Assembly (NCBI GenBank): GCA_038087875.1
Contig: JAXLNO010000485.1
Coordinates: forward strand, 1-64,000
Direction of reading: 5' to 3'
Origin: Malacoraja senta
Taxonomy: Eukaryota
Length of the DNA stretch: 64,000 bases
Shown: positions 3,711 to 61,287 of the stretch, one piece after another
Layout of the letters: each line of letters starts with the position of its first letter
How positions within the stretch are numbered: position 1 is the first letter of the stretch
Position numbers and translations under genes: made by a program
Notes under the pieces: model-generated
The model's input: the letters and a program-made list of their open reading frames with translations, nothing else
The model's database searches: none
What the model was told of the DNA's origin: nothing

Positions 3711-4834
3711 GTAGAGCTTCCACAGCTTGAGTTGTGCAAAGTCATGGAGAACACATCTCCAGTCAGTCAGCTAATTTCCATTGTGTTCAGTGTGTTGGAC
3801 TGAGGGAAAAAATGGGATTAAAGGATGAGATTCTTTCTCCAGTTGCTGTGATACATTGTAAATGGATCGATTGTAATGTGTACGAAGGAACTGCAGATAC
3901 TGGTTTAAACAGAAGATAGTCATAAAAAAGCTGGAGTAACTCAGCGGGGCAGGCAGCATCTCTGGAGAGAAGAATTGAAGAAAGTCTCAACCTGAAACGT
4001 CACCCATTCCTTCTCTCCAGAGATGCTGCCTGTCCTGCTGAGTTACTCCAGCTTTATGTGTCTATCTTCAGATCGATTACAATCATGTATTGACTTTCTG
4101 CTGACTGGTTAGCACACAACAAAAGCTTTTCACTGTAAACAGCTTTCACTATTTCACAATAAACTAAACTGAACTGAGACTATTAATACTTCATACCTGT
4201 GCATAAACCTGGGCAAATGAATTTTAAAATAATTCTTGTCTATAACCTGCTTATGTATTCAAGTGACAGTGGGTGCATTGATTCAATGGTTCAATGGTAC
4301 TTTATTGTCACATATACCTGGGTTCAGTGAAATTACTTTTTGCCTACAGTTCTGTCAAACATTTACAATACACAAGGACAATCATACTTTAGTACAAGAC
4401 TACAGGAAATATAGATTACATTGAGACAATACACAATTTGTATTGATTTCCACTAACATTTTGCATAAATCAAAACTCCAAAGTTATAAACAATGTAGAG
4501 ATTTAACTTGACCTGATAACCTATTGCTTTGGTGGCAGCACCGGTTTGGAGCTGCAGGGTTTAGCCCACAATGTTTGGTATTAGTGTAAAGTTCACAATA
4601 TCAGGATTATTCTTGCATGGAACAGACACTGGTCCACAACCCCAACTTGAATCTGATTTCATGAATTAATTGGCCATTGTACACTTGGCCAGACATTCCT
4701 TATCAAGATTACCATAAGGGACAACCTGCCCTGCCAATGTTACCTCAAAGTGACTATGAGTGTGGTGAACATGGATTGACTTGGAAAGTTTCCTGAAAGA
4801 TCAGCACACATTGAAATGATAACGCAATCAACTG

Positions 4835-10512: not shown

Positions 10513-10924
10513 CTAAGTATAGATATAGGGAAAGATACAGCAGCCTGAAAACCGTGACAACCAGATTCAAGAATAGTCTCTTCTCAGCAATCATCAGGCT
10601 CTTCAACACCACACAAAACTAACTTCAGCATCTATGATCATCTACGGACTGTCTTTGAATGTAATATGAATTTAGTTTTTTGCACTATTATGATAGTCCA
10701 GTATTACAGTTATTAATTTATTGTTATATTGATTGTTTTATATTATCTCTGTGTTATTGCAGTTACATGCAGGTGAAGCTGCAGCAAGTCAGAATTTTGT
10801 TGTTCTATTGTTGATACATAAGACAATTAAACAACTCTTACCTCGCATTTGATTTTGGGTAAAGCTCACTCCATATTACCCCCACCATACACTCAGGAAA
10901 AGTACAAGGAACAAGTACATGTTT

Positions 10925-11960
10925 AAGAAAGAACTGCAGATGCTGGAAAAATCCAAGGTAGACAAAAATGCTGGAGAAACTCAGCAGTGAGGCAGCATCT
11001 ATGGAGCAAAGGAATAGGTGACGTTTTGGGTCGAGACCCTTCTTCAGACTGATATGGGGGTGTGGGGCGGGAAGAAGAAAGGAAGAGGTGGAAATAGTAG
11101 GCTGTGGGAGAGCTTCGAAGGGGAGGGGAAGGAGGGAGAAAGCAAAGACTACCTGAAAATGGAGGTCAATGTTCATACCGCTGGGGTGTAAACTACCCAA
11201 GCGAAAAATGATATGCTGCTCCTCCAATTTGCGGAGGGTCTTACTCTGGCCGTGGAGGAGACCCAGGACAGAAAGGTCGGATTCTGAATGGGAGGGGGAG
11301 TTGAAGTGCTGAGCCACTGGGAGATCAGGTTGGTTAATGCGGACTGAGCGGAGGTGTTGGGCGAAGCGATCGCCAATCCTGCGCTTGGTCTCACCGATGT
11401 AGAGCAGTTGACACCTAGAGCAGCGGATGCAATAGATGAGGTTGGAGGAGGGGCAGGTGAACTTCTGCCTCACTTGGAAAGACTGCTTAGGCCCTTGGAT
11501 GGAGTCAAGGGGGGAGATAAAGCGACAAGTGTAGCATTTCCTGCGGTTGCAAGTGAAAGTGCCAGGGGAGGGGAAGGTTAAGGAACGGGGCTTCTTCTCT
11601 TCGACTGTAGATGAGGCTCTCAGCAGGGTCTCTTCTATATCTCGTTGCTCCGCTCTCACTCCCCATCCCCCCACTCGTGACAAGTCCCCCTTGTCCTCAC
11701 ATTACACCCTACCAGCCGTCACATACAACAGATAATCCTCCGACATATTCGCCACCTCCAACGGGATCCCATCACTGGCCACATCTTCTCATCTTCTCCC
11801 CTTTCAGCTTTCTGAAGAGACTGCACCCTCTGTAACTCCCTGGTCAATTTGTCCCTTCCCACCCAAACCACTCCCTCCCCTGGTACTTTCCCTTGCAACT
11901 GCAGGAAATGCTACACTTGTCGCTTTACCTCCCCCCTTAACTCCATCCAAGGACCTAGGC
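10925..11960. mobile_element. Penelope-like element: GIY-YIG endonuclease fragment (- strand) with inverted 5' segment (+ strand)
   Basis: ORF 10838-11683(-) contains CNRRKCYTC...NLIYCIRCSRCQLLYIGETKRRIGDRFAQH...LEEQHIIFRLGSLHPSGMN. Segment 11873-11956 is an inverted copy of 11489-11572. Confidence 0.9.
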
Positions 11961-17819: not shown

Positions 17820-18715
17820 CTGCTCCGCTCTTGCTCTCCCTTCCCCCCACATTCGTAACAAGGACAGAGTCCCCCTTGTCCTCACCTTCCACCCCATCAG
17901 CCGTCGCACAGCATATGATCCTCCATCATTTTTTGCCACCTCCAACAGGATCCCAATACTGGCCACATCTTCCCATCTCCACCTCTTTCTGCTTTCCGTG
18001 GAGACCATTCCCTCCGAAATTCCCTGGTCAACTCGTCCTTTTCCACCCAAACCACCCCCTCCCCAGGTACTTTCCCCTGCAACCGCAGGAGATGCAACAC
18101 GTGTCCCTTTCCCTCCCTTCTCGACTCCATCCAAGGACCCAAACAGTCTTTCCAGGTGAGGCAGAGGTTCACTTGCACCTCCTCCAACCTCATCTACTGT
18201 ATCCGCAGTTGCAGGTGTCAACTTCTCTACATCAGTGAGGCCAAGCACAGGCTCGGCAATCATTTCACTGAACTACTCCGCTCTGTCCATCTTAACCTAC
18301 CTGATCTCCTGGTTGCTCAGCACTTCAACTTCCCCTCCCATTCACAATCTGACCTTTCTGTCCTGGGCCTCCTCCATTGTCAGGGTGAGGCCCAGTGCAA
18401 ATTGGAGGAATAGCACCTCATATTTCACTTGGGTAGTTTACACCCCAGCGGTATGAACATTGACTTCTCTAACTTTAAATTGCCCTTGCTTTCCCTCTCT
18501 ATCCCCTCCCCCTTCCCAGTTCTTCCACTAGTCTTAGTGTCTTCAACTACATTCTATCTTTGTCCCATCAACTCCCCTGACATCAGTCTGAAGAAGGGTC
18601 TCGACCCGATAGGTCGCCCATTCCTTCTCTCCAGAGATGCTGCTGGCCTGCTGAGTTACTCCAGCATTTTGTGTCTACCTTCGAGTTAAACCAGCATCTG
18701 CAGTTCTATCCTACA
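17820..18715 (+). mobile_element. Penelope-like element 3' part (GIY-YIG) plus hammerhead-like terminal repeat
   Basis: RVPLVLTFHP...CNRRRCNTC...NLIYCIRSCRCQLLYISE...KLEE* followed by CAGTCTGAAGAAGGGTCTCGACCCGA; begins about 300 bp into MHC intron 1. Confidence 0.9.
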
Positions 18716-31769: not shown

Positions 31770-32980
31770 GATGTGGATGTGAATATTGGTGGTTTGATTA
31801 GTAGGTTTGCAGATGACATGTACATTGAAGAAGGTTGTCTATGGATCCAGTGGGATACAGATTAGCTAGAGAGCTGGATGGAGCAATAGCAGAAGGAATG
31901 TAATCCAGAGATGTGTGAAGTTGTGCGTGTCGGCATGTCATGTTCTGGTAGGACATAAACGGTAAGAACCTGAGGGGTGTTAATATACAGAGTGTCCTTG
32001 GGTTGCAAGTTCATTGATACGTGAAAATGCCGACAAGGGGAGACAGGAAAGCAAAAAATGCACTTTGGCATGTTTGTCCACTTAGACATAGCAACATATA
32101 AAATTGGTGCAGGAGTAGGCCATTTGGCCCTTCAAGCCAGCACCACCATTCAATATGGTCATGGCTGATCAACCAGAATCAGTACCCTGTTCCTGCTTTC
32201 TCCCCAATCCCTTGATTTCGTTAACCCTAAGAGCTAACTCTCTCTTGAATACATTCAGTGAATTGGTCTCCGCTGCCTTCTGTGGCAGAGAATTCCACAG
32301 ATTCACAACACTCTGGGTGAAAAGGTTTTCCCCATCTCAATCCTAAATGGCCTACCCCTTATTCGTAAACTGTGACCCCTCGTTCTGGACTCCCCCAACA
32401 TTGAGAATATTTTTCCTGCATATAGTCTGTCAAATCCCTTGTTAGTATTCTATTTCTATCTGATCCCCTCTCATCCTTCTGAATTCCAGTGAATATAATC
32501 CCAGTCGATTCATTCTTTTATTATATGACAGTCCCGCCATCCCGGGAATTAACCTGGTGAACTTTGCTGCACTCCTTCAATAGCAAGAATGTCCTTCCTC
32601 AAACTAGGTGACCAAGACTGCACAAAATACTCCAGGTGCAGTCTCACCAAGGCCCTGTATAACTGAATAGACTCTGGCATCAAGTATATGAGTTGAGAAA
32701 TCAAACAAAACATTGGTTAGGCTGCACATGGAGTATTGCGTAGAGTTCTGGTCGCTCCACTACTAACATTACTGTGCGGGGATCACTGGTTGGCGTGGGC
32801 CGAAGGGCCTGTTTCTGCAATGTATCTCTAAACTAAAAAGGATGTGATGGCATCAAAAGTAGTGCAGAAGGGTTTTGCCAGGTTGTTGCCTGGAATAGAG
32901 GTCTGGTGTTATGTGAAGAGATTGGATAGGCTGCATTTATTCTCACTAGAATGCAGGAGTGAAATAATGAGGGCTATAGA
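31770..32980. mobile_element. Interleaved CR1 fragments (32085-32670 on - strand inside an older + strand CR1)
   Basis: ISRFADD-like start at about 31795; opposite-strand CR1 tail from 32085. Confidence 0.7.
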
Positions 32981-37126: not shown

Positions 37127-37387
37127 GGCCTCACACACTGATCTATTACTACACCCTGAACCACGGGAATACTCATCTACCAGAATATAGTGTTGTGGGT
37201 GTTCTGGACAGTTGTGAGATACAGTATTATGACAAAAACATGGTCATTACAGTTCCAAGACAGAAATGGATGGTGGCTGCATTTGACAGGAATTACTGGG
37301 TAACAAATACGGTCTCTGAAACTGGTTTCCATGGAATCATCAAAGGGCAAGTCGATGAATGGATGCGGAGGCAGAACGAAACAGCAA
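37127..37387 (+). CDS. MHC class I heavy chain, exon 2 (alpha1 domain, 87 aa)
   Basis: Acceptor ttgtctttgtgtctAG, donor A|GTTAGT, 261 nt, phase 1-1. GPHTLIYYYT...VGVLD...YYD...VPRQKW...YW...RRQNETA aligns with class I alpha1 (H3, Y7, G26, D29, D37, P47, R48, W51, Y59, W60, R84, N86 sequon). Confidence 0.95.
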
Positions 37388-40959: not shown

Positions 40960-43246
40960 CCTTGCAGTCAGAAACAGGTGGATTGATCATGGGGAACAAG
41001 GACATGGCAGACCAATTCAATAACTACTTTGGTTCTGTCTTCACTAAGGAAGACTTAAATTATCTGCCGGAAATAGCAGGGGACCGGGGGGCAAATGAGT
41101 TGGAGGAACTGAGTGAAATCCAGGTTAGCCGGGAAGTGGTGTTAGGTAAATCGAATGGATTAAAGGCCGATAAATCCCCAGGGCCAGATAGGCTGCATCC
41201 CAGAGTACATAAGGAAGTAGCCACAGAAATAGTGGATGCATTAGTGATTATTTTTCAAAACTCTTTAGATTCTGGAGTAGTTCCTGAGGATGAACCAGAC
41301 TGATTCCTGGGATGTCAGGACTGTCTTATGAAGAAAGACTGGATAGACTTGGTTTATACTCTCTAGAATTTAGGAGATTGAGAGGGGATCTTATAGAAAC
41401 TTACAAAATTCTTAAGGGGTTGGACAGGCTAGATGCAGGAAGATTGCTCCCGATGTTGGGGAAGTCCAGGACAAGGGCTCACAGCTTAAGGATAAGGGGG
41501 AAATCCTTTAAAACCGAGATGAGAAGAACTTTTTTCACACAGAGAGTGGTGAATCTCTGGAACTCTCTGCCACAGAGGGTAGTCGAGGCCAGTTCATTGG
41601 CTATATTTAAGAGGGAGTTAGATGTGGCCCTTGTGGCTAAAGGGATCAGAGGGTATGGAGAGAAGGCAGGTACAGGATACTGAGTTGGATGATCAGCCAT
41701 GATCATATTGAATGGCGTTGCAGGCTCGAAGGGCCGAATGGCCTACTCCTGCACCTAATTTCTATGTTTCTATGTTTCTATGATTGGAGGGTAGCTAATG
41801 TAACCCCACTTTTTAAAAAGGGAGGGAGAGAAAAAACGGGGAATTACAGACCAGTTAGTCTAACATCGGTAGTGGGGAAACTGCTAGATTCAGTTATTAA
41901 AGTTGGGATAGCAGCACATTTGGAAAGCGGTGAAATCATTGGACAAAGTCAGCATGGATTTATGAAAGGTAAATCATGTCTGACGAATCTTATAGAATTT
42001 TTCGAGGATGTAACTAGTAGAGTGGATAAGGGAGAACCAGTGGATGTGTTATATCTGGACTTTCAGAAGGCTTTCGACAAGGTCCCACATAAGAGATTAG
42101 TATACAAACTTAAAGCACATGGTATTGGGGGTTCAGTATTGATGTGGATAGTGAACTGGCTGGCAGACAGGAAGCAAAGAGTAGGAGTAAACGGGTCCTT
42201 TTCAGAATGGCAGGCAGTGACTAGTGGGGTACCGCAAGGCTCAGTGCTGGGACCCCAGCTATTTACAATATATATTAATGATTTGGACGAGGGAATTGAA
42301 TGCAACATCTCCAAGTTTGCCGATGACACGAAGCTGGGGGGCAGTGTTAGCTGTGAGGAGGGTGCTAGGAGGCTGCAAGGTGACTTGGATAGGCTGGGTG
42401 AGTGGGCAAATGCATGGCAGGTGCAGTATAATGTGGATAAATGTGTGGTTATCCACTTTGGTGGCAAAAACAGGAAAGACTATTACCTCAATGGTGGCCG
42501 ATTAGGAAAAGGGGAGATGCAACGAGACCTGGGTGTCATAGTACACCAGTCATTGAAAGTAGGCATGCAGGTGCAGCAGGCAGTGAAGAAAGTGAATGGT
42601 ATGTTAGCATTCATAGCAAAAGGATTTTAGTATAGGAGCAGGGAGGTTCTACTGCAGTTGTTCATGGTCTTGGTGAGACCACACCTGGAGTATTGCCTAC
42701 AGTTTTGGTCTCCTAATCTGAGGAAGGACATTCTTGCCATAGAGTGAGTAAGAGAAGGTTCACCAGACTGATTCCTGGGATGTCAGGAATTTCATATGAA
42801 GAAAGACTGGATAGACTCGGCTTGTACTCGCTAGAATTTAGAAGATTGAGGGGGGGGATCTTATAGAAACTTACAAAATTCTTAAGGTGTTGATCAGGCT
42901 AGATGCAGGGAGATTGTTCCCGATGTTGGGGAAGTCCAGAGCAAGGGGTCACAGTTTAAGGATAAAGGGGAAATCTTTTAGGACTGAGATGAGAAAACCT
43001 TTTTTTACACAGAGAGTGGTGAATCTCTGGAATTCTCTGCCACAGAATGTAGTTGAGGCCCGTTCATTGGCTATATTTAAGAGGGAGTTAGATGTGGCCC
43101 TTGTGGCTAAAGGGATCAGGGGGTATGGAGAGAAGGCAGGTACAGGATACTGAGTTGGATGATCAGCCATGATCATATTGAATGGCAGTGCAGGCTCAAA
43201 TGGCCGAATGGCCTACTCCTGTGCCTATTTTTCTATGTTTCTATAA
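40960..43246 (+). mobile_element. CR1 LINE (RT, 5'-truncated) with a nested same-family 3' fragment at 41293-41782
   Basis: ORF 41689-42630: NYRPVSL, QHGF, YLDFQKAFDKV, SGVPQGSVLGP, FADD. (TTTCTATG)n tails at about 41760-41782 and 43232-43246. Confidence 0.95.
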
Positions 43247-43858
43247 TTAGTATACAAATTAGCTATTTGTGGTGTTTCTTGAAAACACGAATACGAGAGA
43301 ATGTACAGGATCTGCAGAACAACTAAAAGACTGCAGAAAGCAGCTTGAAAAGAAGGCTCTTCATCTATACAACATAATTATGTTTTATTCAGCTATCATT
43401 GTTTGTAGAGTTTCTTATTGGAATGAAAACATCATCCAAGTTGTGACCCTTCCTTATTACGCCTGGTCCCAGGGGCATGGTTGGCATTAGCTCATTACCT
43501 TCATCCTAATAAAGGGTTGTTGTTCACAGTTGTGCCTAGGTTTTTATCAATTATAACCTTGATTTCACAAACTGTTCTTTGTCTCTGGGCTAAAGTTCAC
43601 AGACTCTCCTTTGCAAGGAGTGAGCAGTTTTAAGCAAACTGACCAGCAAATCCTTACAAATTCCATCAACCCCCCCCCCCCTCCCCGACTTTGATTCATC
43701 AATCAATGCCAGAGGGAATGAATCATCTAAGTAAAGGGACCTGTCCCACTTACGTGTCCTTGAAACGCATATTACGCGTTGAGCCACGATGGTCCGGCGA
43801 AGGTCGGGCGCGATTACATGCGTACGTACAGCCGTCTGGAGCGCGTGACGTTATTTGA
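43068..43858 (+). repeat. Segment B copy 1 (791 bp direct repeat)
   Basis: Nearly identical to 47833-48623 and 52594-53383; contains a CR1 tail end, a unique segment and the left TIR of a MITE. Confidence 0.95.
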
Positions 43859-46800
43859 TATAAATTTTTATTAGAAGCAAACATATTACAGTGTAGAGTA
43901 ACATATTATAATAGAATAGAAAAAAAAAAATTTCATATACATCAATCATTCATACGTTATTAAATTTGTCAATTGTCAGTTAATTCTGCTTCTAGTGTTT
44001 TTTTTAATATAGATAGAAAAAGAAAAATAGAGAGAAAGAAGAGAAAGAAAGAAGAATTTCAATATCAAAAAAGAAAAATAGGTGGAATGAATTAGTTATA
44101 ATACGTCATAGGAGATAAGTTCGTATGTTATGAAATATAATTACATCTAATCCTGAGTTCAAGCTTCAGTCGGGCTTTCGCGCTGGGCCACTCTGTCCCT
44201 TCAAATAGGCAATGAATGGAGCCCATATTTTAACAAAAAGTTCTTGCTTGTCCATTAAGACGAGTCTAATTCTTTCTAGATGTAGGGTCTCCGACATTTC
44301 CACAATCCACATTTTAATTGTGGGGGTTGTAGGGCCTTTCCAGAATTTTAATATTAATTTTTTCCCTGTTATTATACTGTAGTCAAGGAAGTTTCTTTGG
44401 CTTGTTGTGAGTGTTAAACTTTGTTCTGATATCCCAAGTATTATTAATTTTGAGTCTGGAGCTATTTTGGTATTAACAACTTCAGAGATTATTTGAAAAA
44501 TATCAGTCCAGTAATTTTTAATTTTTATACAATTTGCAAAGGTATGTGTTAAATTGGCCTCTAGATACAGGCATTTATCACATATAGGAGAAATATGTGG
44601 GAAAATTCTATTTAGTTTTATTTTGGAATAATGTAATCTGTGTAAGACTTTAAATTGTATTAAAGCATGTCTGGCATTTAACGAACATTGATGTATATGT
44701 TGTAAACTTTCGTCCCATATATCTTTCGTAATAGGATAACCTAACTCATTTTCCCATTTATGTCTATATAGTTCTATCGGTGGTTCCTCATTATTTAAGA
44801 GAATGTTATAAATATAAGCTATTAATTTTTCAGTGTTAGGATGCTTATTCAAACATTCATCAAGAATTTCTGGTTCCCTAGTCCTATAAACTTGTGTATT
44901 GGATTTAACATAATCTCTAATTTGTAAATATCTGAAAAAGTTATTTGAGTGTAGTCCATGATTCTGTTGTAACTCTTGAAATGACAGAAAGATGCCTTCC
45001 CTATAAAGATGTCCAATCCTTTTAATTCCATGATTTTTCCATTGTATAAAACCTCTATCCAATATGGATGGCTTGAATAGAGGATTATTTACAATGGGAA
45101 GACATAGTGGTATATTATTCAGTTTTAAAGCCTTTTTTAATTGTTTCCAAATTCGTATTCCACTATGTATTATAGGGTTTTCCTTATAGGTTTTTTTATG
45201 CAATTTTGTGGTAGCAAATATAATCGAACCTATTTCAAAAGGTAAACAGTCTTCCTTTTCCATCCTTAACCATTCTGGTTGTTGGTCCATTTCTTCCAGC
45301 CAGAAATTCATGTTTTTAATATGGACTGCCCAAAAATAAAATAAGAAATTTGGCAAAGCCAAACCTCCGTTGCTCTTTGACTTACATAAATGTTTTTTAC
45401 TTATTCTATGATTCTTATAATCCCAAATAAAGCTTGTAACAATGGAGTCAACTTTTTTGAAAAAGTTTTTGGGAATATATATCGGAATTAATTGAAATAA
45501 ATATAGTAGTTGCGGTAAGAAAATCATTTTTATAGCATTAATTCTACCAAGCATTGAAATAGGAAGTGTTTTCCAGTACTGAATATGTTTGTGTAATTTA
45601 TTAAGTAAGGGTGGAAAATTTTGTTTAAATAAAGAGGTATATGCCTTAGTTACATTGATTCCTAAATATTTAAGTTTATCTTTAACTATTTTAAAAGGGG
45701 ATTGTTGTATTGTATTTAAGTTGAATTTTGTTATTGGCATAATTTCACTTTTATTCCAATTAATCCTATATCCTGAGAACTGACCAAATTGTGTTATTAG
45801 ATTTAACAGATTTGGAATACTAGTTTCTAACTTTGTAATATATATTAATACATCATCTGCATATAAGGAGATTTTATTCCTTGTATCTCTAGTGTTGTAT
45901 CCATGTATTCCTGGATGGTTTCTAACGCTTTCTGCTAATGGTTCAATTGCAAGAGCAAATAATAGTGGGGACAGTGAACATCCTTGTCTACAACCTCTAG
46001 AAAGATTAAATTTGGCTGATAACATTTGATTTGTTAATATTCTAGCTGTTGGATTAGAGTATAACAATTTAACCCATGTGCAGAACTTCTCTCCCAATTG
46101 AAATTTTTTCATTACCGAAAATAAATATGTCCATTCTACCTGGTCAAATGCCTTTTCAGCATCTAACGAAATAATTGCTAGATCTGCATTTGGAATTCTA
46201 TTTGTATGTATAATATTGAATAGTCTTCTCAAATTATAAAATGAGTATCGTTTTGGAATAAAACCTGTTTGGTCCGGGTGTATTAATTTATTAATCACTA
46301 AGCTCAATCTATGAGATAGGATTTTGGTTAATATTTTCTGATCAGTATTTAGGAGAGCTATTGCTCTATATGAACCTGGGTCTTCAAGATCCTTATCCGG
46401 TTTCGGTATAAGTATGATTGTAGATTCATTTAGAGTTTCTGGAAGTTTCTGTTGAGTATATGCTTGTTTGTAAAGTCTCTGTAGACGTGGAGAAATCAGA
46501 TCGTAAAATTTTTTATAAAATTCAGAGCTTAGACCATCAGGACCTGCGGCCTTTCCATTTTTTAAAGATCTAATTGACTCCTCGATGTCTTTTACCGTAA
46601 TTTCTACATCTAGTGATTCTCTCTCTTTCTGATCTAGACCTGTAAGATTACATTTCTGTAGAAATGTTTCCATTCCTACTGGTTGTTCTGTTGTTTTAGA
46701 TGAATACAATTTTTGATAATATTGTAAAAATCTATCATTAATATCTTTAGGTAGTGTTAATGTTTCTCCCTTATCTGATCTAATTTTGTAAATTGTTTTT

Positions 46801-47832
46801 TCCCCGTCCTGTTTACGAAGTTGACGCGCCAATATTTTTTGTGGTTTATCTCCAAATTCAAAATGTAATTGTTTTGTACGTTGATATAGTTTTATTACTT
46901 GGTCTGAGTATAACTTATTTAACTTATATTTCAGTACTGCAATTTTATTGTGTTTTACCATAGATGGTGCTATTGCATTTTCTATGTCTAATTGCTTTAT
47001 TTCCGTTTCCAAAGACTGTTGTTTGGCCCTATTCTCTTTATTAATAAATGATTGGGAGGATATTAATGCTCCTCGCACAAATACTTTAAATGTTTCCCAA
47101 AGAAGGAAGGCGGAGATTCCAGAGCTGTCATTAGCCTCGAAAAACATATTAATCTGTTTTACGAGGTATTCATTACATGACTTTTCTTTCAAAATTTGGG
47201 GGTTAAGTCTCCATTGTGTCTTTGTCTCGGTCATTCCTTTTAGTTTAATCATAAATGTAAGTGGAGCATGGTCCGATATTATAATATTATGATATTGCGA
47301 ATTATAGGTAAATGGGATAAGTTTAGAGTCTACTAAGAAATAGTCTATCCTTGAGTACGTTTGATGCACGGGTGAGTAAAATGAGTATTCTCGACCAGAT
47401 GGGTTTTCAATTCTCCAAACATCCTTAATGTTTGTAGTATTAATATATGAATTTAGGAATTCACTTGACCGAGATTTTAATTTTCTTTGACTTGATGATC
47501 TATCCAAGTAAGCATCCAGTGTACAATTTAAGTCTCCACCGATAATTAAATTATGTTGTGTACATTCCGGGATAATGTTAAGTATTCTCTTAAAGAACAG
47601 GGGGCTATCAAAATTTGGTCCATATACATTAAGGAGAGTCACTTTTTTTGAGTATAACTCCCCTACTAATACAATATATCTGCCTTCAATATCTTCTGTC
47701 GTTGATATATGTTTAAAGGGTATACCTTTACGAATTAATATTGCAACCCCTCTAGATTTATATGAAAATGAAGAATGATACGTTTTAGCAATCCATTTGG
47801 CTTTCAATCTATGTTGTGCTTCCTTTTTAAGA
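43859..47832 (-). mobile_element. L1-clade LINE copy 1, 5'-truncated, ORF2 frame open (44166-47807, 1213 codons)
   Basis: APE motifs GGDLNC, YSRIDYFL, SDHAP; RT motifs GPDG, LDAEKAFD, GCRQGC, YADD; C-terminal CX2CX8HX4C; AATAAA at the 3' end. Truncated at (QET)HLKK inside the endonuclease; no ORF1. Confidence 0.97.
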
Positions 47833-48623
47833 TGGCTATATTTAAGAGGGAGTTAGATGTGGCACTTGTGGCTAAAGGGATCAGGGGGTATGGAGAGAAG
47901 GCAGGTACAGGATACTGAGTTGGATGATCAGCCATGATCATATTGAATGGCAGTGCAGGCTCAAATGGCCGAATGGCCTACTCCTGTGCCTATTTTTCTA
48001 TGTTTCTATAATTAGTATACAAATTAGCTATTTGTGGTGTTTCTTGAAAACACGAATACGAGAGAATGTACAGGATCTGCAGAACAACTAAAAGACTGCA
48101 GAAAGCAGCTTGAAAAGAAGGCTCTTCATCTATACAACATAATTATGTTTTATTCAGCTATCATTGTTTGTAGAGTTTCTTATTGGAATGAAAACATCAT
48201 CCAAGTTGTGACCCTTCCTTATTACGCCTGGTCCCAGGGGCATGGTTGGCATTAGCTCATTACCTTCATCCTAATAAAGGGTTGTTGTTCACAGTTGTTC
48301 CTAGGTTTTTATCAATTATAACCTTGATTTCAGAAACTGTTCTTTGTCTCTGGGCTAAAGTTCACAGACTCTCCTTTTCAAGGAGTGAGCAGTTTTAAGC
48401 AAACTGACCAGCAAATCCTTACAAATTCCATCAACCCCCCCCCCCCTCCCCGACTTTGATTCATCAATCAATGCCAGAGGGAATGAATCATCTAAGTAAA
48501 GGGACCTGTCCCACTTACGTGTCCTTGGAACGCATATTACGCGTTGAGCCACGATGGTCCGGCGAAGGTCGGGCGCGATTACATGCGTACGTACAGCCGT
48601 CTGGAGCGCGTGACGTTATTTGA
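47833..48623 (+). repeat. Segment B copy 2
   Basis: Offset 4765 from copy 1. Confidence 0.95.
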
Positions 48624-51600
48624 TATAAATTTTTATTAGAAGCAAACATATTACAGTGTAGAGTAACATATTATAATAGAATAGAAAAAAAAAATTTCAT
48701 ATACATCAATCATTCATACGTTATTAAATTTGTCAATTGTCAGTTAATTCTGCTTCTAGTGTTTTTTTTAATATAGATAGAAAAAGAAAAATAGAGAGAA
48801 AGAAGAGAAAGAAAGAAGAATTTCAATATCAAAAAAGAAAAATAGGTGGAATGAATTAGTTATAATACGTCATAGGAGATAAGTTCGTATGTTATGAAAT
48901 ATAATTACATCTAATCCTGAGTTCAAGCTTCAGTCGGGCTTTCGCGCTGGGCCACTCTGTCCCTTCAAATAGGCAATGAATGGAGCCCATATTTTAACAA
49001 AAAGTTCTTGCTTGTCCATTAAGACGAGTCTAATTCTTTCTAGATGTAGGGTCTCCGACATTTCCACAATCCACATTTTAATTGTGGGGGTTGTAGGGCC
49101 TTTCCAGAATTTTAATATTAATTTTTTCCCTGTTATTATACTGTAGTCAAGGAAGTTTCTTTGGCTTGTTGTGAGTGTTAAACTTTGTTCTGATATCCCA
49201 AGTATTATTAATTTTGAGTCTGGAGCTATTTTGGTATTAACAACTTCAGAGATTATTTGAAAAATATCAGTCCAGTAATTTTTAATTTTTATACAATTTG
49301 CAAAGGTATGTGTTAAATTGGCCTCTAGATACAGGCATTTATCACATATAGGAGAAATATGTGGGAAAATTCTATTTAGTTTTATTTTGGAATAATGTAA
49401 TCTGTGTAAGACTTTAAATTGTATTAAAGCATGTCTGGCATTTAACGAACATTGATGTATATGTTGTAAACTTTCGTCCCATATATCTTTCGTAATAGGA
49501 TAACCTAACTCATTTTCCCATTTATGTCTATATAGTTCTATCGGTGGTTCCTCATTATTTAAGAGAATGTTATAAATATAAGCTATTAATTTTTCAGTGT
49601 TAGGATGCTTATTCAAACATTCATCAAGAATTTCTGGTTCCCTAGTCCTATAAACTTGTGTATTGGATTTAACATAATCTCTAATTTGTAAATATCTGAA
49701 AAAGTTATTTGAGTGTAGTCCATGATTCTGTTGTAACTCTTGAAATGACAGAAAGATGCCTTCCCTATAAAGATGTCCAATCCTTTTAATTCCATGATTT
49801 TTCCATTGTATAAAACCTCTATCCAATATGGATGGCTTGAATAGAGGATTATTTACAATGGGAAGACATAGTGGTATATTATTCAGTTTTAAAGCCTTTT
49901 TTAATTGTTTCCAAATTCGTATTCCACTATGTATTATAGGGTTTTCCTTATAGGTTTTTTTATGCAATTTTGTGGTAGCAAATATAATCGAACCTATTTC
50001 AAAAGGTAAACAGTCTTCCTTTTCCATCCTTAACCATTCTGGTTGTTGGTCCATTTCTTCCAGCCAGAAATTCATGTTTTTAATATGGACTGCCCAAAAA
50101 TAAAATAAGAAATTTGGCAAAGCCAAACCTCCGTTGCTCTTTGACTTACATAAATGTTTTTTACTTATTCTATGATTCTTATAATCCCAAATAAAGCTTG
50201 TAACAATGGAGTCAACTTTTTTGAAAAAGTTTTTTGGAATATATATCGGAATTAGTTGAAATAAATATAGTAGTTGCGGTAAGAAAATCATTTTTATAGC
50301 ATTAATTCTACCAAGCATTGAAATAGGAAGTGTTTTCCAGTACTGAATATGTTTGTGTAATTTATTAAGTAAGGGTGGAAAATTTTGTTTAAATAAAGAG
50401 GTATATGCCTTAGTTACATTGATTCCTAAATATTTAAGTTTATCTTTAACTATTTTAAAAGGGGATTGTTGTATTGTATTTAAGTTGAATTTTGTTATTG
50501 GCATAATTTCACTTTTATTCCAATTAATCCTATATCCTGAGAACTGACCAAATTGTGTTATTAGATTTAACAGATTTGGAATACTAGTTTCTAACTTTGT
50601 AATATATATTAATACATCATCTGCATATAAGGAGATTTTATTCCTTGTATCTCTAGTGTTGTATCCATGTATTCCTGGATGGTTTCTAACGCTTTCTGCT
50701 AATGGTTCAATTGCAAGAGCAAATAATAGTGGGGACAGTGAACATCCTTGTCTACAACCTCTAGAAAGATTAAATTTGGCTGATAACATTTGATTTGTTA
50801 ATATTCTAGCTGTTGGATTAGAGTATAACAATTTAACCCATGTGCAGAACTTCTCTCCCAATTGAAATTTTTTCATTACCGAAAATAAATATGTCCATTC
50901 TACCTGGTCAAATGCCTTTTCAGCATCTAACAAAATAATTGCTAGATCTGCATTTGGAATTCTATTTGTATGTATAATATTGAATAGTCTTCTCAAATTA
51001 TAAAATGAGTATCGTTTTGGAATAAAACCTGTTTGGTCCGGGTGTATTAATTTATTAATCACTAAGCTCAATCTATGAGATAGGATTTTGGTTAATATTT
51101 TCTGATCAGTATTTAGGAGAGCTATTGCTCTATATGAACCTGGGTCTTCAAGATCCTTATCCGGTTTCGGTATAAGTATGATTGTAGATTCATTTAGAGT
51201 TTCTGGAAGTTTCTGTTGAGTATATGCTTGTTTGTAAAGTCTCTGTAGACGTGGAGAAATCAGATCGTAAAATTTTTTATAAAATTCAGAGCTTAGACCA
51301 TCAGGACCTGCGGCCTTTCCATTTTTTAAAGATCTAATTGACTCCTCGATGTCTTTTACCGTAATTTCTACATCTAGTGATTCTCTCTCTTTCTGATCTA
51401 GACCTGTAAGATTACATTTCTGTAGAAATGTTTCCATTCCTACTGGTTGTTCTGTTGTTTTAGATGAATACAATTTTTGATAATATTGTAAAAATCTATC
51501 ATTAATATCTTTAGGTAGTGTTAATGTTTCTCCCTTATCTGATCTAATTTTGTAAATTGTTTTTTCCCCGTCCTGTTTACGAAGTTGACGCGCCAATATT

Positions 51601-52593
51601 TTTTGTGGTTTATCTCCAAATTCAAAATGTAATTGTTTTGTACGTTGATATAGTTTTATTACTTGGTCTGAGTATAACTTATTTAACTTATATTTCAGTA
51701 CTGCAATTTTATTGTGTTTTACCATAGATGGTGCTATTGCATTTTCTATGTCTAATTGCTTTATTTCCATTTCCAAAGACTGTTGTTTGGCCCTATTCTC
51801 TTTATTAATAAATGATTGGGAGGATATTAATGCTCCTCGCACAAATACTTTAAATGTTTCCCAAAGAAGGGAGGCGGAGATTCCAGAGCTGTCATTAGCC
51901 TCGAAAAACATATTAATCTGTTTTACGAGGTATTCATTACATGACTTTTCTTCAAAATTTGGGGGTTAAGTCTCCATTGTGTCTTTGTCTCGGTCATTCC
52001 TTTTAGTTTAATCATAAATGTAAGTGGAGCATGGTCCGATATTATAATATTATGATATTGCGAATTATAGGTAAATGGGATAAGTTTAGAGTCTACTAAG
52101 AAATAGTCTATCCTTGAGTACGTTTGATGCACGGGTGAGTAAAATGAGTATTCTCGACCAGATGGGTTTTCAATTCTCCAAACATCCTTAATGTTTGTAG
52201 TATTAATATATGAATTTAGGAATTCACTTGACCGAGATTTAATTTTCTTTGACTTGATGATCTATCCAAGTAAGCATCCAGTGTACAATTTAAGTCTCCA
52301 CCGATAATTAAATTATGTTGTGTACATTCGGGATAATGTTAAGTATTCTCTTAAAGAACAGGGGGCTATCAAAATTTGGTCCATATACATTAAGGAGAGT
52401 CACTTTTTTTGAGTATAACTCCCCTACTAATACAATATATCTGCCTTCAATATCTTCTGTCGTTGATATATGTTTAAAGGGTATACCTTTACGAATTAAT
52501 ATTGCAACCCCTCTAGATTTATATGAAAATGAAGAATGATACGTTTTAGCAATCCATTTGGCTTTCAATCTATGTTGTGCTTCCTTTTTAAGA
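48624..52593 (-). mobile_element. L1-clade LINE copy 2, same junctions as copy 1, frameshifted near its 5' end
   Basis: ORF 48930-51911 is almost identical to copy 1; single-base deletions in short runs at about 51.95-52.33 kb break the frame. Confidence 0.95.
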
Positions 52594-53383
52594 TGGCTAT
52601 ATTTAAGAGGGAGTTAGATGTGGCACTTGTGGCTAAAGGGATCAGGGGGTATGGAGAGAAGGCAGGTACAGGATACTGAGTTGGATGATCAGCCATGATC
52701 ATATTGAATGGCAGTGCAGGCTCAAATGGCCGAATGGCCTACTCCTGTGCCTATTTTTCTATGTTTCTATAATTAGTATACAAATTAGCTATTTGTGGTG
52801 TTTCTTGAAAACACGAATACGAGAGAATGTACAGGATCTGCAGAACAACTAAAAGACTGCAGAAAGCAGCTTGAAAAGAAGGCTCTTCATCTATACAACA
52901 TAATTATGTTTTATTCAGCTATCATTGTTTGTAGAGTTTCTTATTGGAATGAAAACATCATCCAAGTTGTGACCCTTCCTTATTACGCCTGGTCCCAGGG
53001 GCATGGTTGGCATTAGCTCATTACCTTCATCCTAATAAAGGGTTGTTGTTCACAGTTGTTCCTAGGTTTTTATCAATTATAACCTTGATTTCAGAAACTG
53101 TTCTTTGTCTCTGGGCTAAAGTTCACAGACTCTCCTTTTCAAGGAGTGAGCAGTTTTAAGCAAACTGACCAGCAAATCCTTACAAATTCCATCAACCCCC
53201 CCCCCCTCCCCGACTTTGATTCATCAATCAATGCCAGAGGGAATGAATCATCTAAGTAAAGGGACCTGTCCCACTTACGTGTCCTTGGAACGCATATTAC
53301 GTGTTGAGCCACGATGGTCCGGCGAAGGTCGGGCGCGATTACATGCATACGTACAGCCGTCTGGAGCGCGTGACGTTATTTGA
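52594..53383 (+). repeat. Segment B copy 3 (continues into unique flank)
   Basis: Offset 4761 from copy 2; followed by AGATGGACAC instead of L1. Confidence 0.95.
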
Positions 53384-53940
53384 AGATGGACACAAAGCTG
53401 GAGTAAGTCAGCGGGACCGGCAGCATCTCTGGAGAGAAGGAATGGATGACGTTTCATGTCGAGACTCTTCTTCAGTCTGAAAAGAAGGGTATTGACCCGA
53501 AACATCACCCATTGCTTCTCTCCAGAGATGCTGCCGATCCCGCTGAGCTACTCCTGCATTTTGTGCCTATCTTCAATTTTCTTGGCCCCGCTCTGGGAGG
53601 AGAAGTGGGGGCGGATCCGGACCACAACGGCCGTGAGCCCCAGGCTGAGTTCGGCGATCGTTTGCCTGCTTCTGCTGCTGTTGGAGGTGAGACTTTGCGT
53701 CGCGCCAGGGTCTTGGCCTGTCCCACTTTGGCCGTCAGTTCCGCGACAGACCGTTGGCGTGCGAAAATCTCGTTCACTACAAAATTATCGGAGCCCCGCG
53801 CAATGTCGCGCACAACTACATACCCCTCCGCGCTTCCAAGTGGGACCGGCCCCGCGCGGCCATACGATGCCCGTGCGCCTCAACGCGACGACGAGTTCAC
53901 ATAATTTGTGTGCCAAGGACACGTAAGTGGGACAGGCCCT
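53260..53940. mobile_element. Harbinger-like MITE interrupted by a palindromic PLE-repeat dimer (about 53380-53575)
   Basis: TIRs AGGGACCTGTCCCACTTACGTGTCCTTGG / CCAAGGACACGTAAGTGGGACAGGCCCT with TAA on both sides (53257-53259 and 53941-53943). Confidence 0.8.
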
Positions 53941-54295
53941 TAAGAATACCAAGGAAAGGTAGCGCAGCTACACATCACTGGATATCTTTAACCTGTTCAA
54001 TGCCACCGCCGAGTACACTAGGGGTCATGGCCAATAGTGAAAAATAAACTTGGCAGTGAACAGCTTAATGGTCTCCATATTTTATAGAAAGCCTTCAATG
54101 TCCATGAGGGGTGAGCCTTATTATATCTATGTTTCTCTAAATATAGGAAGCACTTTTGTGGTAAAAGATGGGGCAGCTCGGGCCTTGAAAAGATCCAACC
54201 TTATGTGCAGCTTTACATTTGTTTATATGCAATAAGCAAAAAGAACACAATAGAAGATAAAACATGATAATAACTATAAGCAAAGCAAGAGATCG

Positions 54296-54661: not shown

Positions 54662-56691
54662 TAGGGCCTATGAGAGGGGGGTGCAGGGGGTACATCGTAC
54701 CCGGGCCCAGAGTCCAATAGGAGCCCGGGAGCTGAAGGAGGGGGGGCGGGAATTTCGTGAAATCTCAGAAAATGTTTGCATATATTTTGTGAAGACTAGC
54801 ATTCACATTTTGTGCCTTCAGAGTTTTATATATCGTAATTCGTAGAAATTGTGATCCATAATAAAGCAGGGAATTTTAACTGGCGGGTGTGTGGTCGGGG
54901 TAACCTGATTAAAAGAGGGGGAAGGGGATGGATCTTCCCTGTAGGAGGAGGGAGAGCACGAGGACCCAACAGAGTCATCACTACTGATGGGTCTTCCCTG
55001 CAGGAGGGGGGGGGGAGCACTAGGAGCCAGCAATCAGACCATGTGCTGTCTGCATGGTGGAGGTTGTGGGCCTGGTGCTGAGCCGGGAACTCTGGTGAGG
55101 TGACGGCTCTGGCCCGCTGGTGGCCGGTGGAGAGGCGAGGGTCGGCAGAGTCGCTGGTGGAGGCCCGTGGGGAGCTGGAGTAGAGATATGGGCAGCAGCA
55201 TCATTGGCTTTCTGAAGACAGTCAAGGTCGGCGACAGTGGCTGTGGTGGCCTCGCCCGGGGAGGTGGTGAGAGTCGGCAGCCGCGGCTGTTTCAGTGGTC
55301 CGGGCCTGGGTTTGGGTCAGTATGTGTGTGGATGGGTGGGTGTGAGTGAGTGGGTGAGGGTGTGTGTGTGTGTGTGTGGATGTGTGTGGGTGTATGTGAG
55401 TAGGTGAGTGAGTGTGTGTCTGAGTGTATGTGTGTGTTAGTGGGAGGGTGAACTTTATAAATGAAGTTAAAACCATTAGATCTGTTGAACTTTTGACTTG
55501 GTAACCTGTTTCCAAATGTTTGTGTTAGCTTCAGAATACTATTAACAATTCCAGCAACAGTAGCTTCTGCAGAGAGGTCATTTAGCAAACTCAAGCTGAT
55601 TAAGAATTATTTAAGGTCGACAATGTCTCATGAACGTCTTGTGGATTTGGCCAGGCTAAGTATTCAAAGTCAGATTTATTCATCACATACACCCGAAGGT
55701 GCAGTGAAGTGAATTTACCAGCAGTGATACACGTAAAAGAACACACAATACACAATAAAATTGAACACAACAGCATTCTTCACTGTGGTGGAAGGCAACA
55801 CGTTTCAGCCAGTCCTCCTCCTTTGTTCACCCGTGTTCGGGGCCATAACCCCTCCGTAGTCGCCGCTGGGGACGGCCCGATGTACAAGGCCCTCTCGTCG
55901 GGATGATCCAAACTCCGACGTTGGGACGGACAAACACACTCTGCGGCTTGGAGGTCCCGACTCGGCACTTTCCTACTGGAGACCGCAGCTTCAGGATGTG
56001 AGCCAGCGGTTCGAGCTCGTCTCTGGTGATCCCCGGCGAGGGATCCCAGGATCCGGATGGTAAGTCCACGCCACGCCCGCGGTTAGAAGCTCCGCAGACC
56101 ACAGCTCCACGGTGTCAACGTATTGAATCAATAGTATTGAATCATACATTGCCAGAACAATACATTTTTATGCTGTGATTTGACATTTTTCACAAAAAAG
56201 GCCAGGAAAGCTCTTTATATAAAGTAAATTTATATAATAAATCTTTTACTTTTTACTAATAATTATGTCTTTTGATGATATGAACTGCATTGAAACATAA
56301 AAGGATGTTTCAATGTGAATTCTTTCTCCTTATCTGTATTGTAGCATAAACAAAGATGTTCAAAACAAAGCTAGATAAAATGCTGGAGAAACTCAATGGG
56401 TGAGGAAGCATCTATAGAGTGAAGAAAACAAATGTGCTTTCTGATCCTTTTATTTAGATTTATTTATATTTATCATGGAGGGTGTATAGGGGCATAAGGC
56501 CTCAAATGCAGAAAATCAACAGAGCGCCCCATTCCACCCCTCTCTCATCTTCCATACCCCTTTTTGCCCTGCAGTCTCCAGCTCATGGCATAAAACTGTA
56601 GCATAGCGGATAAAAACAGGATGACTAATGGAGAAGGGAAGGGGCCCAAAAGAAACTTTGTACCCACTGATAAAATTCCTCTCAGGCCCTG
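54662..56691 (+). mobile_element. Nested non-autonomous hAT (Tip100/ZMYM1-like)
   Basis: TIRs TAGGGCCTATGAGAGG / rc CAGGGCCTGAGAGG; perfect 8-bp TSD CGTATACA (54654-54661, 56692-56699); internal relic FPNVCVSFRILLTIPATVASAERSFSKLKLIKNYLRSTMSHERL at about 55500-55660. Confidence 0.9.
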
Positions 56692-56725
56692 CGTATACAC
56701 GCACAAACAGTGTGTGTTGTGAACC

Positions 56726-58485
56726 ATGTCTTCCAAGACGCGCCACGTATAGTGAAGCATTTCTCAAGTTGGGCTTCACAAGCATTGTTCAAAATCCGTG
56801 GTCAAGCCGCGATGTGTTCTCTGTGCCAAGGTTTAGAGTCACGAGAGCATGAAGCCCAGCAAACTGAAGATCCATTTGGTGTCTTGTCACAGCAACCTGG
56901 CGGGGAAGGGCGGGGACTATTTCAAACGAAAAGAAGCCATAACTCAAGGGATCCCGCATCTATTCAACGGGTCACTGCGCTCATCAAAATGAAGCAGCGT
57001 TGGAGGCTTCATACCGGATTGCTTATCGAATCGCACAGACTAAGAAACCTCACACCATCGGTGAAGAGCTTATCAAGCCATGCCTTCTCGAAACAGCGAA
57101 GTTGGCGCTGGGGGAAGAGCAGTCAAACAAGTTCAGACAGACTTCCCTTTGAATGAAAAGTTGAATCTCGGATATGAGTAATGATATTCTGCTGCAAGTA
57201 GTGAGGGCTGTGACGAGCAGTCCAGTGTATTCACTGCAACTGGGCGAGTCAACAGATGTTGCCTCATGTTCCCAACTGCTAGTCTACGTTCGTTACCTCG
57301 ATGGAGAAGTACCTGTTCTCGAGCCATTGGCTACTACCACTCGGGGAGAAGATGTGTTCAGAATGCTGGAAGCCTTCCTCATCAAACATGAGCTTGGCTG
57401 GGAACGCCTTGTCGGGATGTGTACAGTTGGGGCACCTTCCATGGTCGGTTGCAGATACGGTTTCCAAGCCTTCGTGAATGATGTGGCTCCCCATGTCTCC
57501 TTCACCCACTGCATGATACATCGCCATGCTTTAGCGATGAAGACTCTCCCTCTTGCTCTTCTAGAAGTGCTTTCAGGTGTGGTGAAGATTGTGAACCACA
57601 TCCGACAGAGCGCAACAAACTCAAGAATCTTCAAAGCGATGTGTGAAGAAATGGGCGCCGATTTCACTGTTCTGTTATTCCACACAGAGGTGCGCTGGCT
57701 TTTGCGTGGTAAAGTTCTCAATCTTGTGATTCAACGTTGAGAGGAAATAGCGTTGTTCTTGGAGAGAAGGGGTACTGAGAAGGAGAATCAGCTTCATGAA
57801 AAGATGCAGGTTGAACTGTTCGTGATGAAGGTTGCTTACTTGGCTGACTTCTTCGCTGAGGTGAATTCTTTCAACCTGTCACTTCAAGGAAACATCCCAA
57901 TGCTACACACGGCTCGTGACAAAGTGGCAGCATTCAGGAGGAACCTTTACCAGAGAAGAGTCCAGGACGGTGACTCGACTATCTTCCTGAGATGACGACT
58001 CTCCTGGATGCTACGCCTGATGCTGAATGCCACTTCCACGAGGAGATCTCAACCCACCTCTGGCAATTAGTGAAGCCATCGAACGTTACTTCCCCGGACT
58101 GGACGACCGCTCTCGTGATCAGTGGATCATCCGACCCTTTACCGTTGAAGACGGTGGCATCAGTGATACTGACGTGACTGCGAAGGTTGAATTTTACCGA
58201 ATTCGTGAAGATGCGCAGCTCAAGAGTGACTTCATGGAACAAGGGCTTGCCACGTTTTGGCTGAAAGTGAAGGACTGTCCTGCTCTTTCAAAGAGGGCCT
58301 TGACCCTATTGGTCCAGTCCCCCTCCACCTCTCACTGTGAGGGTGGATTCTCAACTATGGTAACTCTGAAAACGAAGGTACGCAATAGGCTTGTGATCGA
58401 CACTGACATGAGATGCTGCATGTCGAGCATTCGTGCTCGTTTTGATTGCCTGATGACTGCGAAGCAATTTCAGCCATCCCATTGA
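56726..58485 (+). pseudogene. Buster-type hAT transposase pseudogene
   Basis: MSSK..YSEAFLKLGFT (BED-finger region), YSLQLGESTDVA, THCMIHRHALA, LLFHTEVRWL.RGKVL, CEGGFS, C-terminal QFQPSH*; multiple frameshifts and stops; first catalytic D appears as G (LQLGESTD). Confidence 0.9.
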
Positions 58486-58689
58486 CTGAGCAATGGCTGA
58501 CATGTTTTAATAAATCGGGCTGTTTTTTTTCAATTTTGTTTCAGAAGTCATGGTACTGATCAAGAATGCCCGATGGGGTCGGGGGCCAAAAAGATTAAGA
58601 ACCACTGCTCTAAAGCTTAAAACTAAAGAGGGCTAATAAAGGCCACAAAGTGGCTTTAGTGAGTCGGATTACAGAAAATCCACATCTTT

Positions 58690-59385: not shown

Positions 59386-59504
59386 GTGGATTGCTTAAGG
59401 ATATAGAAGGGAATATGTGCTTGGCGTTTGTGGATATAGGCGAGGTTTGGTTTCACCAAGGAAGACATGTAGAATAGTAAGGACCATTAATAGTAAGTAC
59501 ATCA

Positions 59505-60290
59505 TAAAATCCTCCAACATTTCTGCCACCTCCAACGGGATCCCACTACTGGTCACATCTTCCCATCTCCACCCCTTTCTGCTTTCCGCAGAGACCGTTC
59601 CCTCCGGAACTCCCTGGTCAACTCGTCCCTTCACACCCAAACCACCCGCTCCCCGGATACTTTCCCCTGCAACCGCAGAGATGCAACACCTGCCCCTTTA
59701 CATCCCCCCTCGACTCCGTCCAAGGACCTAAAGTCATTCCAGGTGAGGCAGAAGTTCACTTGCACCTCTTCCAACCTCATCTACTGTATCCGCTGTTTCA
59801 GTTCTCTACATCAGTGAGACCAAGCGCAGTCTCGGCGATCGTTTTGCTGAACACTTCCCTCAGTCCGTCTTACCCTACCCGATCTCCCGGTGGCTCAGCA
59901 CTTCAACTCCCCCTCCCATTCCCAATCTGACCTTTCTGTCCTGGGCCTCCTCCATTGTCAGAGTGAGGCCCAGCCCAAATTGGAGGAACAGCACCCCATA
60001 TTTCGCTTGGGTAGTCTATACTCCAGCGGTATGAACATTGACTTCTATACTTTCGATAGCCCTTGATTTCTCTCTCCATCCCCTCCCCCTTCCCAATTCT
60101 GCCACCAGTCTTACTGTCTCCGCCGACATTCTATCTTTGTCCCTCCCCTGACATCAGTCTGAAGAAGGGTCTCGACCCAAAACGATGCCCATTCCTTCTC
60201 TCCAGGGAAGCTGCCTGACCCGCTGAGTTACGCCAGCATTTTGTGTGTTTACGATTTTAACATCTGCAGCATCTGCAGTTCTTTCTTACA
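59505..60290 (+). mobile_element. Penelope-like GIY-YIG 3' fragment plus terminal repeat
   Basis: Close paralog of 17930-18715. Confidence 0.9.
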
Positions 60291-61011: not shown

Positions 61012-61287
61012 ATTATCACTACGTTCAAGGACAGTTTGGTTGTGAGGTGGACGATCACAGTCCCACTGTAGGGATATTGAAGTTGGCCTTTGATGGAAGA
61101 TATGCATTTAGTTTTGATAAGGACAAACTAAAGTGGACGGTGCATGATCCAATAGCTGAGCCCTTCAAAGAGAAATGGGACAAGAATGAAAAAATGAACC
61201 GTTATTTCAAGAGCTTGTTAGAACATGACTGTGTGGATCTATGGCTTACATACTATGCAATTGGAAAGACATACCTGACCAGAAAAG
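61012..61287 (+). CDS. MHC class I heavy chain, exon 3 (alpha2 domain, 92 aa)
   Basis: Acceptor ttttatttttatttcAG, donor G|GTGAGT, 276 nt, phase 1-1. YHYVQGQFGCEV...AFDG...FSFDKD..KW...KEKWD...LEHDC...Y..G has H93, Q96, G100, C101, D119, G120, W133, K146, W147, C164, Y171. Confidence 0.95.

What the first reader, a model, noticed from the sequence alone, without database searches (positions are those of the whole stretch)
43068..53383. B-L1-B-L1-B array: L1 insertion with a ~790-bp target duplication, then amplified like an LTR element
Two L1 copies with identical 5' (…TTTTTAAGA|TGGCTAT, 2-nt TG microhomology) and 3' (GTTATTTGA|TATAAA) junctions alternate with three copies of a 790-791-bp host segment; the periods are 4765 and 4760-4761. 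A simple tandem duplication cannot give three B and two L1, so B-L1-B must have formed in one event. The B end TTATTT/GA resembles the L1 endonuclease TTTT/RA site. This suggests TPRT with a very long TSD (typical TSDs are about 7-20 bp), creating pseudo-LTRs that allow unequal crossing-over to expand or contract the MHC intron in ~4.8-kb steps.
Basis: partly seen in the sequence, partly recalled or inferred. Interest (0 to 1): 0.72.

Follow-up and report, generated by a model that had tools for sequence, protein, structure and literature searches.

The report
L1 with 790-base target duplication
A jumping gene (L1) sits between near-identical 790-base stretches in an intron of an MHC class I-like gene, most likely because it doubled its landing site on arrival, and about 6 in 100 of its relatives in this genome are flanked by similarly oversized repeats; the second L1 copy is likely a later unequal crossover but may be an assembly error.

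Summary
The array is in the assembly as described. B is not unique host DNA: it is CR1 tail, multicopy MHC-I intron and half a MITE. All 17 paralogs examined carry B joined to the downstream flank with no L1, and both L1 junctions occur only here. The three B copies share locus-private changes, so they descend from one local B. A survey of 128 independent copies of this L1 family found 84 with 11-27 bp TSDs (mode 15), 2 with 65-73 bp, 8 with 137-790 bp and 34 with none called; controls gave 16 of 16,129 and 1 of 451. B-L1-B is therefore most likely a long TSD (0.88), a recurrent product of this family. B2 is B3 on the left and B1-like on the right, as unequal crossover predicts, but a haplotype mis-join gives the same: the L1 copies differ by 0.13% and the second has three 1-bp deletions. 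No laid run bridged a junction (0.6 real). Long LINE TSDs are known from HeLa, NER-deficient cells and algal Dualen; my 10 searches found no report for vertebrate germline L1. The scan noted a related L1-plus-3-kb doubling elsewhere in this genome.

The parts
37127..37387 (+). Likely MHC class I-like alpha1 exon, upstream of the host intron
   Evidence: Motif scan, AG/GT ends and 261-bp size; no Pfam hit at 1e-3 (protein 18)
43068..43858 (.). B1, one copy of the 790-bp target-site duplication (at the L1 3' end)
   Evidence: 2 private derived changes (43613, 43763) against 17 paralogs
43068..43244 (+). Part of B: 3' tail of a CR1-type LINE that begins further left; the duplication starts inside it
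   Evidence: Self-matches to 41598-41773, 32088-32251; RT ORF 41641-42630; CR1 label recalled
43734..43858 (.). Part of B: left end of a PIF/Harbinger-like MITE; its other end lies at 53898-53941
   Evidence: Inverted ends 88.9% over 45 bp, TAA on both sides; family label recalled
43859..47832 (-). L1a: 5'-truncated L1, ORF2 frame open from the junction to the stop at 44166, no ORF1, no poly(A) tail
   Evidence: nearest sampled members 1.3-1.4% away
47833..48623 (.). B2, middle copy: B3-like at 5 left sites (3 shared derived), B1-like/ancestral at 2 right sites
48624..52593 (-). L1b: second copy, 5 substitutions from L1a, ORF2 broken by three 1-bp deletions near 51950, 52237, 52328
52594..53383 (.). 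B3, copy of B joined to the ancestral downstream flank as in empty paralogs
   Evidence: 17 of 17 paralogs share this junction
53380..53576 (.). Imperfect palindrome (81.6%) of SINE-like repeat inside the MITE, abutting the nick site
   Evidence: not enriched at other long-TSD sites (0 of 10 vs 9 of 83)
61012..61287 (+). MHC class I-like alpha2 exon, closing the 23.6-kb host intron
   Evidence: Pfam MHC_I E 3.7e-13; splice ends; alpha3-like exon at about 67.3 kb of the contig

Best explanation
A 5'-truncated L1 is flanked by 790-bp direct repeats that most likely arose as one oversized target-site duplication during insertion, and the extra B-L1 unit likely arose later by unequal crossover between those repeats. 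Step 1 (layout and empty site shown; mechanism inferred, 0.88): the endonuclease nicked the + strand at GTTATTT/GA, reverse transcription primed on the element's nearly tail-less 3' end through a 3-nt match, and the cDNA was joined by a 2-nt microhomology at a point 790 bp away (distal second nick or replication from the other end), so that B was copied. Step 2 (inferred, 0.6): B3 of one chromatid or homologue paired with B1 of another and crossed over within the last 95 bp of B, giving B-L1-B-L1-B. The array is a neutral intronic by-product; neither L1 copy can move by itself (no ORF1, ORF2 start missing).
For: One B and no L1 in 17 of 17 paralogs and in three 30-kb paralog stretches. Junctions unique to this contig. 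B1-B3 share 7 states seen in none of 17 paralogs, so they are copies of the local B. Family survey: 8 of 128 independent copies have 137-790 bp repeats abutting both ends (95% CI 3-12%), 6 of 95 in the first set and 2 of 33 in the second; cross-locus control 16 of 16,129, offset control 1 of 451. Three of the eight match nothing else in the sampled loci. Long-TSD pairs differ by 0.6-2.1%, their elements by 1.0-2.0% from the nearest reference, so the repeats are about as old as the insertions; here B1/B3 0.89%. Long and short TSDs start at the same kind of pyrimidine/A-rich site. B2 is B3-left, B1-right. L1a and L1b share 28 private changes and have 2 and 3 of their own. Another tandem unit between about 690-bp repeats, 0.9% diverged, lies on C1.
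Against: No laid run had a listed contig across either junction. L1a/L1b differ by 5 of 3974 (0.13%), inside the 0.06-0.25% range of five neighbouring near-identical locus pairs that may be unpurged haplotypes. All five length differences are deletions in the second unit, three within 380 bp, whereas 12 of 21 other copies have no private 1-bp deletion and 7 have one: this looks like poorly polished consensus. None of the 8 other long-TSD copies shows a second unit within the stretch fetched. No poly(A) tail (but 51 of 94 called copies have 3 or fewer bases between the 3' motif and the TSD). The crossover must fall in the last 12% of B.
Confidence: 0.55

Rival explanations
1. B-L1-B is a real long TSD, but the second unit is a false duplication: two haplotypes were joined through B3 of one and B1 of the other.
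For: Allele-level divergence of the L1 copies and clustered 1-bp deletions in unit 2; 5 near-identical neighbour pairs 42-75 kb apart among the first 100 loci; unplaced 91.7-kb contig in a family with hundreds of copies; a mis-join predicts the same B2 mosaic.
Against: No alternative copy of the locus elsewhere in the assembly; a 790-bp overlap is short for a long-read assembler (own knowledge; the assembly method is not known to me); crossover between homologues also gives allele-level divergence.
Confidence: 0.33
2. The L1 inserted with an ordinary TSD; a microhomology-mediated tandem duplication then copied B plus the L1's 3' 4 kb, and a crossover in B with an empty allele removed the original longer L1.
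For: It gives the same layout; B3 carries 5 derived changes absent from B1 and B1 2 absent from B3, which could be allelic.
Against: Needs two extra events; no copy of this insertion with a longer 5' end exists in the assembly; long flanking repeats occur in about 6% of the family without such a history.
Confidence: 0.07
3. Two independent L1 insertions, recombination between MHC paralogs, or B carried along as a 3' transduction.
For: Double insertion makes LINE tandems in Drosophila (PMC5932611, passages); B lies downstream of the L1 3' end; paralogs are abundant.
Against: Identical truncation point and 28 shared private changes; paralog B is only 95-96% alike and lacks the 7 private states; no poly(A) after B and B also flanks the 5' side.
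Confidence: 0.05

Closest known systems
Large TSDs of engineered human L1 in HeLa and NER-deficient cells (Servant et al. 2017, PMC5223499; passages and tables seen)
   Same: L1 insert flanked by duplications of hundreds of bases at endonuclease-type sites; TSDs over 100 bp never above 10% in HeLa, like the 6% here; distal second nick proposed; some inserts tail-less.
   Different: Those are marked constructs in cultured cells; these are natural inherited copies. 3 of the 10 long cases here are full-length, whereas Kojima 2010 reports that all 6 full-length HeLa inserts of Gilbert et al. had 10-17 bp TSDs (Gilbert itself not seen).
L1-linked 1-10 kb tandem duplications 'regarded as large TSDs' in tumours and induced clones (bioRxiv 10.1101/2024.12.14.628481; passages)
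   Same: [quoted passage not shown]
   Different: Somatic, human, p53-type experimental and cancer settings; sizes larger.
Dualen-4b LINE of Chlamydomonas, duplications of median 900 bp, and rotifer R9 with 126 bp (PMC9977147; passages)
   Same: Heritable LINE insertions flanked by long duplications.
   Different: Other clades; over half of Dualen inserts are long and two endonucleases are blamed; here one APE-type ORF2 and a short-TSD mode of 15 with a long tail.
Tandem LTR elements with shared LTRs; R1 and Bari1 arrays (PMC5932611; passages)
   Same: n elements alternate with n+1 repeats; unequal exchange changes copy number.
   Different: B is target DNA, not part of the element; that paper says non-LTR elements supply no substrate of their own, which a long TSD would.
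Human germline L1 TSD distribution (Evrony et al. 2016 Appendix 1, PMC4805530; Kojima 2010, PMC2912911; passages)
   Same: Mode of 15 bp.
   Different: TSDs over 50 bp were said to be appreciable only in HeLa; Kojima collected only 5-30 bp TSDs, so the human figure is partly set by method.

Membership tests
L1-clade LINE | ORF2 with APE endonuclease then RT | tested here: met
   Pfam Exo_endo_phos and RVT_1 in 44166-47852
L1-clade LINE | Dispersed 5'-truncated and inverted copies with about 15-bp TSDs at pyrimidine/A-rich sites | tested here: met
   84 of 128 with 11-27 bp TSDs; site counts; inversions
L1-clade LINE | RT phylogeny places it in L1 rather than Tx1 or another clade | not tested
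   No tree was built; no reference set on hand
L1-clade LINE | Poly(A) tail | tested here: inconclusive
   Absent here; short or absent in about half the family, long in others
Target-site duplication | Empty site holds one copy of the repeat | tested here: met
   17 of 17 paralogs; paralogs, not alleles
Target-site duplication | Repeats abut both element ends and date to the insertion | tested here: met
Target-site duplication | Empty allele or orthologue of this very locus | not testable with these tools
   No relatives held; runs laid did not resolve the locus
Tandem array by unequal crossover | Middle repeat is a 3'-copy/5'-copy mosaic | tested here: met
   rests on 5 left and 2 right sites
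Tandem array by unequal crossover | Exists on one DNA molecule; copy number varies | not testable with these tools
   No raw reads of the individual
LTR retrotransposon | Repeats belong to the element and travel with it | tested here: not met
   B exists without L1 in paralogs; other family copies have other flanks

The most novel reading that the evidence does not exclude
In this cartilaginous-fish germline, ordinary L1 integration yields 0.1-0.8 kb target duplications in about 6% of events, full-length ones included, a rate otherwise reported for L1 only in cultured or repair-deficient cells; these repeats act as pseudo-LTRs that let LINEs be amplified or cleanly excised, and this locus is one caught amplifying inside an MHC class I intron.
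Probability: 0.45. Interest if true: 0.7.

Novelty: new variant of a known kind. Interest (0 to 1): 0.52.

Why it matters
How the second strand is cut in L1 integration is open, and long TSDs have been put down to peculiarities of HeLa cells. An inherited set with a 15-bp mode and a tail to 790 bp gives natural material and suggests that TSD searches capped at 30 bp miss such events; the same survey can be run on any long-read vertebrate genome. With 341 exact matches to one 3'-end pattern alone, some tens of such duplications are expected in this genome. They could copy exons and make L1 presence/absence markers reversible. The locus itself has no shown function.

Tried and rejected
Public runs: best holders shared 0.49 of the words; laying 4 and then 2 of the 24 runs gave only short contigs, none listed across a junction, and the empty-site continuation as a loose end; uninformative about this individual. 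Palindrome at the nick as cause of the long TSD: 0 of 10 long vs 9 of 83 short sites have one; rejected. 3' transduction, double insertion, paralog recombination: see rivals. L097 (1190-bp match, 93.7%) rejected as two CR1 copies. L075 and L083 (65, 73 bp) lie wholly in repeats with near-identical copies elsewhere and are kept out of the 100-bp-plus count; L098 is mostly such a repeat but includes 89 bp not found elsewhere. Papers: 10 searches found no report of long L1 TSDs in a fish or shark germline; subscription papers, including Gilbert 2005, are not held, and no supplements were read. PMC5932605 had no matching passage. L203-L205 were fetched and used only as part of search databases.

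Full report
Observation. Self-comparison gives a 5556-bp match 43068-48623 to 47833-53383 at 99.69% and a 791-bp match of B1 to B3 at 98.99%. The insert carries an endonuclease-RT frame on the minus strand, open in copy a and broken three times in copy b. Full-length relatives are about 6.26 kb, so both copies lack the 5' 2.3 kb.

Setting. The array lies in a 23.6-kb intron between a likely alpha1 exon (37127-37387; motif and splice ends only) and an alpha2 exon (61012-61287; Pfam MHC_I) of an MHC class I-like gene, with an alpha3-like exon further on in the contig. The gene region is multicopy: the non-CR1 part of B had 889 candidates, of which 40 were scored, and three paralogs align over most of 30 kb at about 91-98%. 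An earlier scan note calls the organism a skate (not tested). B is a 177-bp CR1-type tail, family intron, and the left end of a MITE with TAA on both sides (labels recalled).

Empty site. 17 paralog loci were fetched out of 37 scored. All 17 join B to the sequence that follows B3, with no L1. B1, B2 and B3 share 7 states absent from all 17, so they come from the local B. Both L1 junctions occur twice in the assembly, only here. The family ends in ...TTTATATCA followed by C and a short or absent A run, so the last three bases of B match both target and element; the 5' join has a 2-nt microhomology.

Family survey. I took the first 100 of 341 exact matches to the 3' end, all 33 matches to a variant and 7 of the 40 hits, each with 2 kb of 3' flank and 8 kb on the element side. 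One locus was lost (end not located) and 11 were dropped as near-identical duplicates, leaving 128. TSD calls: 84 of 11-27 bp (mode 15), none of 31-49, 2 of 65-73, 8 of 137-790 (137, 142, 161, 339, 357, 563, 738, 790), 34 uncalled. The window's own copy is not counted. Rates were 6 of 95 and 2 of 33 in the two sets. Pairing flanks of different loci gave 16 of 16,129; moving both junctions outward gave 1 of 451, a tandem locus. The eight long pairs differ by 0.6-2.1% and their elements by 1.0-2.0% from the nearest reference; three match nothing else in the sampled loci; they start at the same kind of site as short TSDs. Three of the ten cases over 50 bp are full-length. Duplications longer than the flanks fetched would be missed. 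No empty allele was available for these eight, so they are TSDs by layout, age and site, not by direct comparison.

Second unit. Polarised on paralogs, B2 shares 3 derived states with B3 on the left, lacks B1's 2 derived states, and lacks B3's 2 derived CpG changes on the right: the switch lies in the last 95 bp of B. L1a and L1b share 28 changes absent from 21 relatives and have 2 and 3 of their own, so they split late, at about a tenth of the insertion's age. Unequal crossover predicts this. So does a join of two haplotypes: 0.13% lies within the 0.06-0.25% of five neighbouring near-identical pairs, and the three clustered 1-bp deletions in copy b are unusual (12 of 21 relatives have none, 7 one, two have 4 and 8). 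On the other side, a 5.4-kb tandem unit bounded by about 690-bp repeats and 0.9% diverged exists on C1, older than those pairs. Public runs did not resolve the locus.

Mechanism. Shown: layout, single B in paralogs, microhomologies, family-wide long repeats. Inferred: nick at GTTATTT/GA, priming on a nearly tail-less RNA, resolution 790 bp away by a distal nick (PMC5223499) or replication from the reciprocal end (bioRxiv 2024.12.14.628481), which the sequence cannot separate; then unequal crossover. I put step 1 at 0.88 and step 2 at 0.6.

What is known. Long L1 TSDs occur in under 10% of HeLa events and in most events in NER-deficient cells; heritable ones of median 900 bp are described for the algal Dualen LINE. 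For inherited human L1 they were said to be absent, but one cited survey collected only 5-30 bp. Tandems through shared terminal repeats are standard for LTR elements. All papers were seen as passages or search listings only. Ten searches found no account for a fish or shark germline, within a library that lacks most subscription papers.

Verdict. A new variant of a known kind. The single locus is a modest curiosity with an unverified second unit; the family-wide tail of long TSDs in a vertebrate germline is the stronger result. Interest 0.52.

Noticed in passing
L071, L088, L093, L098, L062, L121, L176, L200 (flanks of the L1 copy in each): Eight further copies of the L1 family with 137-790 bp direct repeats abutting both ends.
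   Followed up: yes
L090 + L164 (G000:C1:215773005-215784653): A 5.4-kb tandem unit holding an L1 with an ordinary TSD, bounded by about 690-bp repeats whose middle copy lacks 127 bp; 98.8% identical. Origin of the repeats not found.
   Followed up: partly
L079/L080, L125/L126, L127/L128, L129/L130, L133/L134: Near-identical locus pairs 42-75 kb apart on C1 and C2 (99.5-99.9%): unpurged haplotypes or young segmental duplications.
   Followed up: partly
window 27,500-66,000 of the contig vs C4261, C2817, C5457: A highly expanded MHC class I-like gene family on many small contigs, 91-98% alike including introns. Lineage not determined.
   Followed up: partly
window 41294-43244: The CR1-type LINE left of the array is permuted: a 3'-end piece (41294-41780) interrupts its coding part, which resumes at 41782.
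   Followed up: no
window 10838-11701, 17908-18715, 59499-60290: Penelope-like GIY-YIG fragments (weak Pfam hit) in several copies.
   Followed up: no
window 56300-58500: Decayed hAT-like transposase frames (label recalled, no Pfam hit).
   Followed up: no
L100: Complex L1 locus with several inverted and repeated internal pieces.
   Followed up: no
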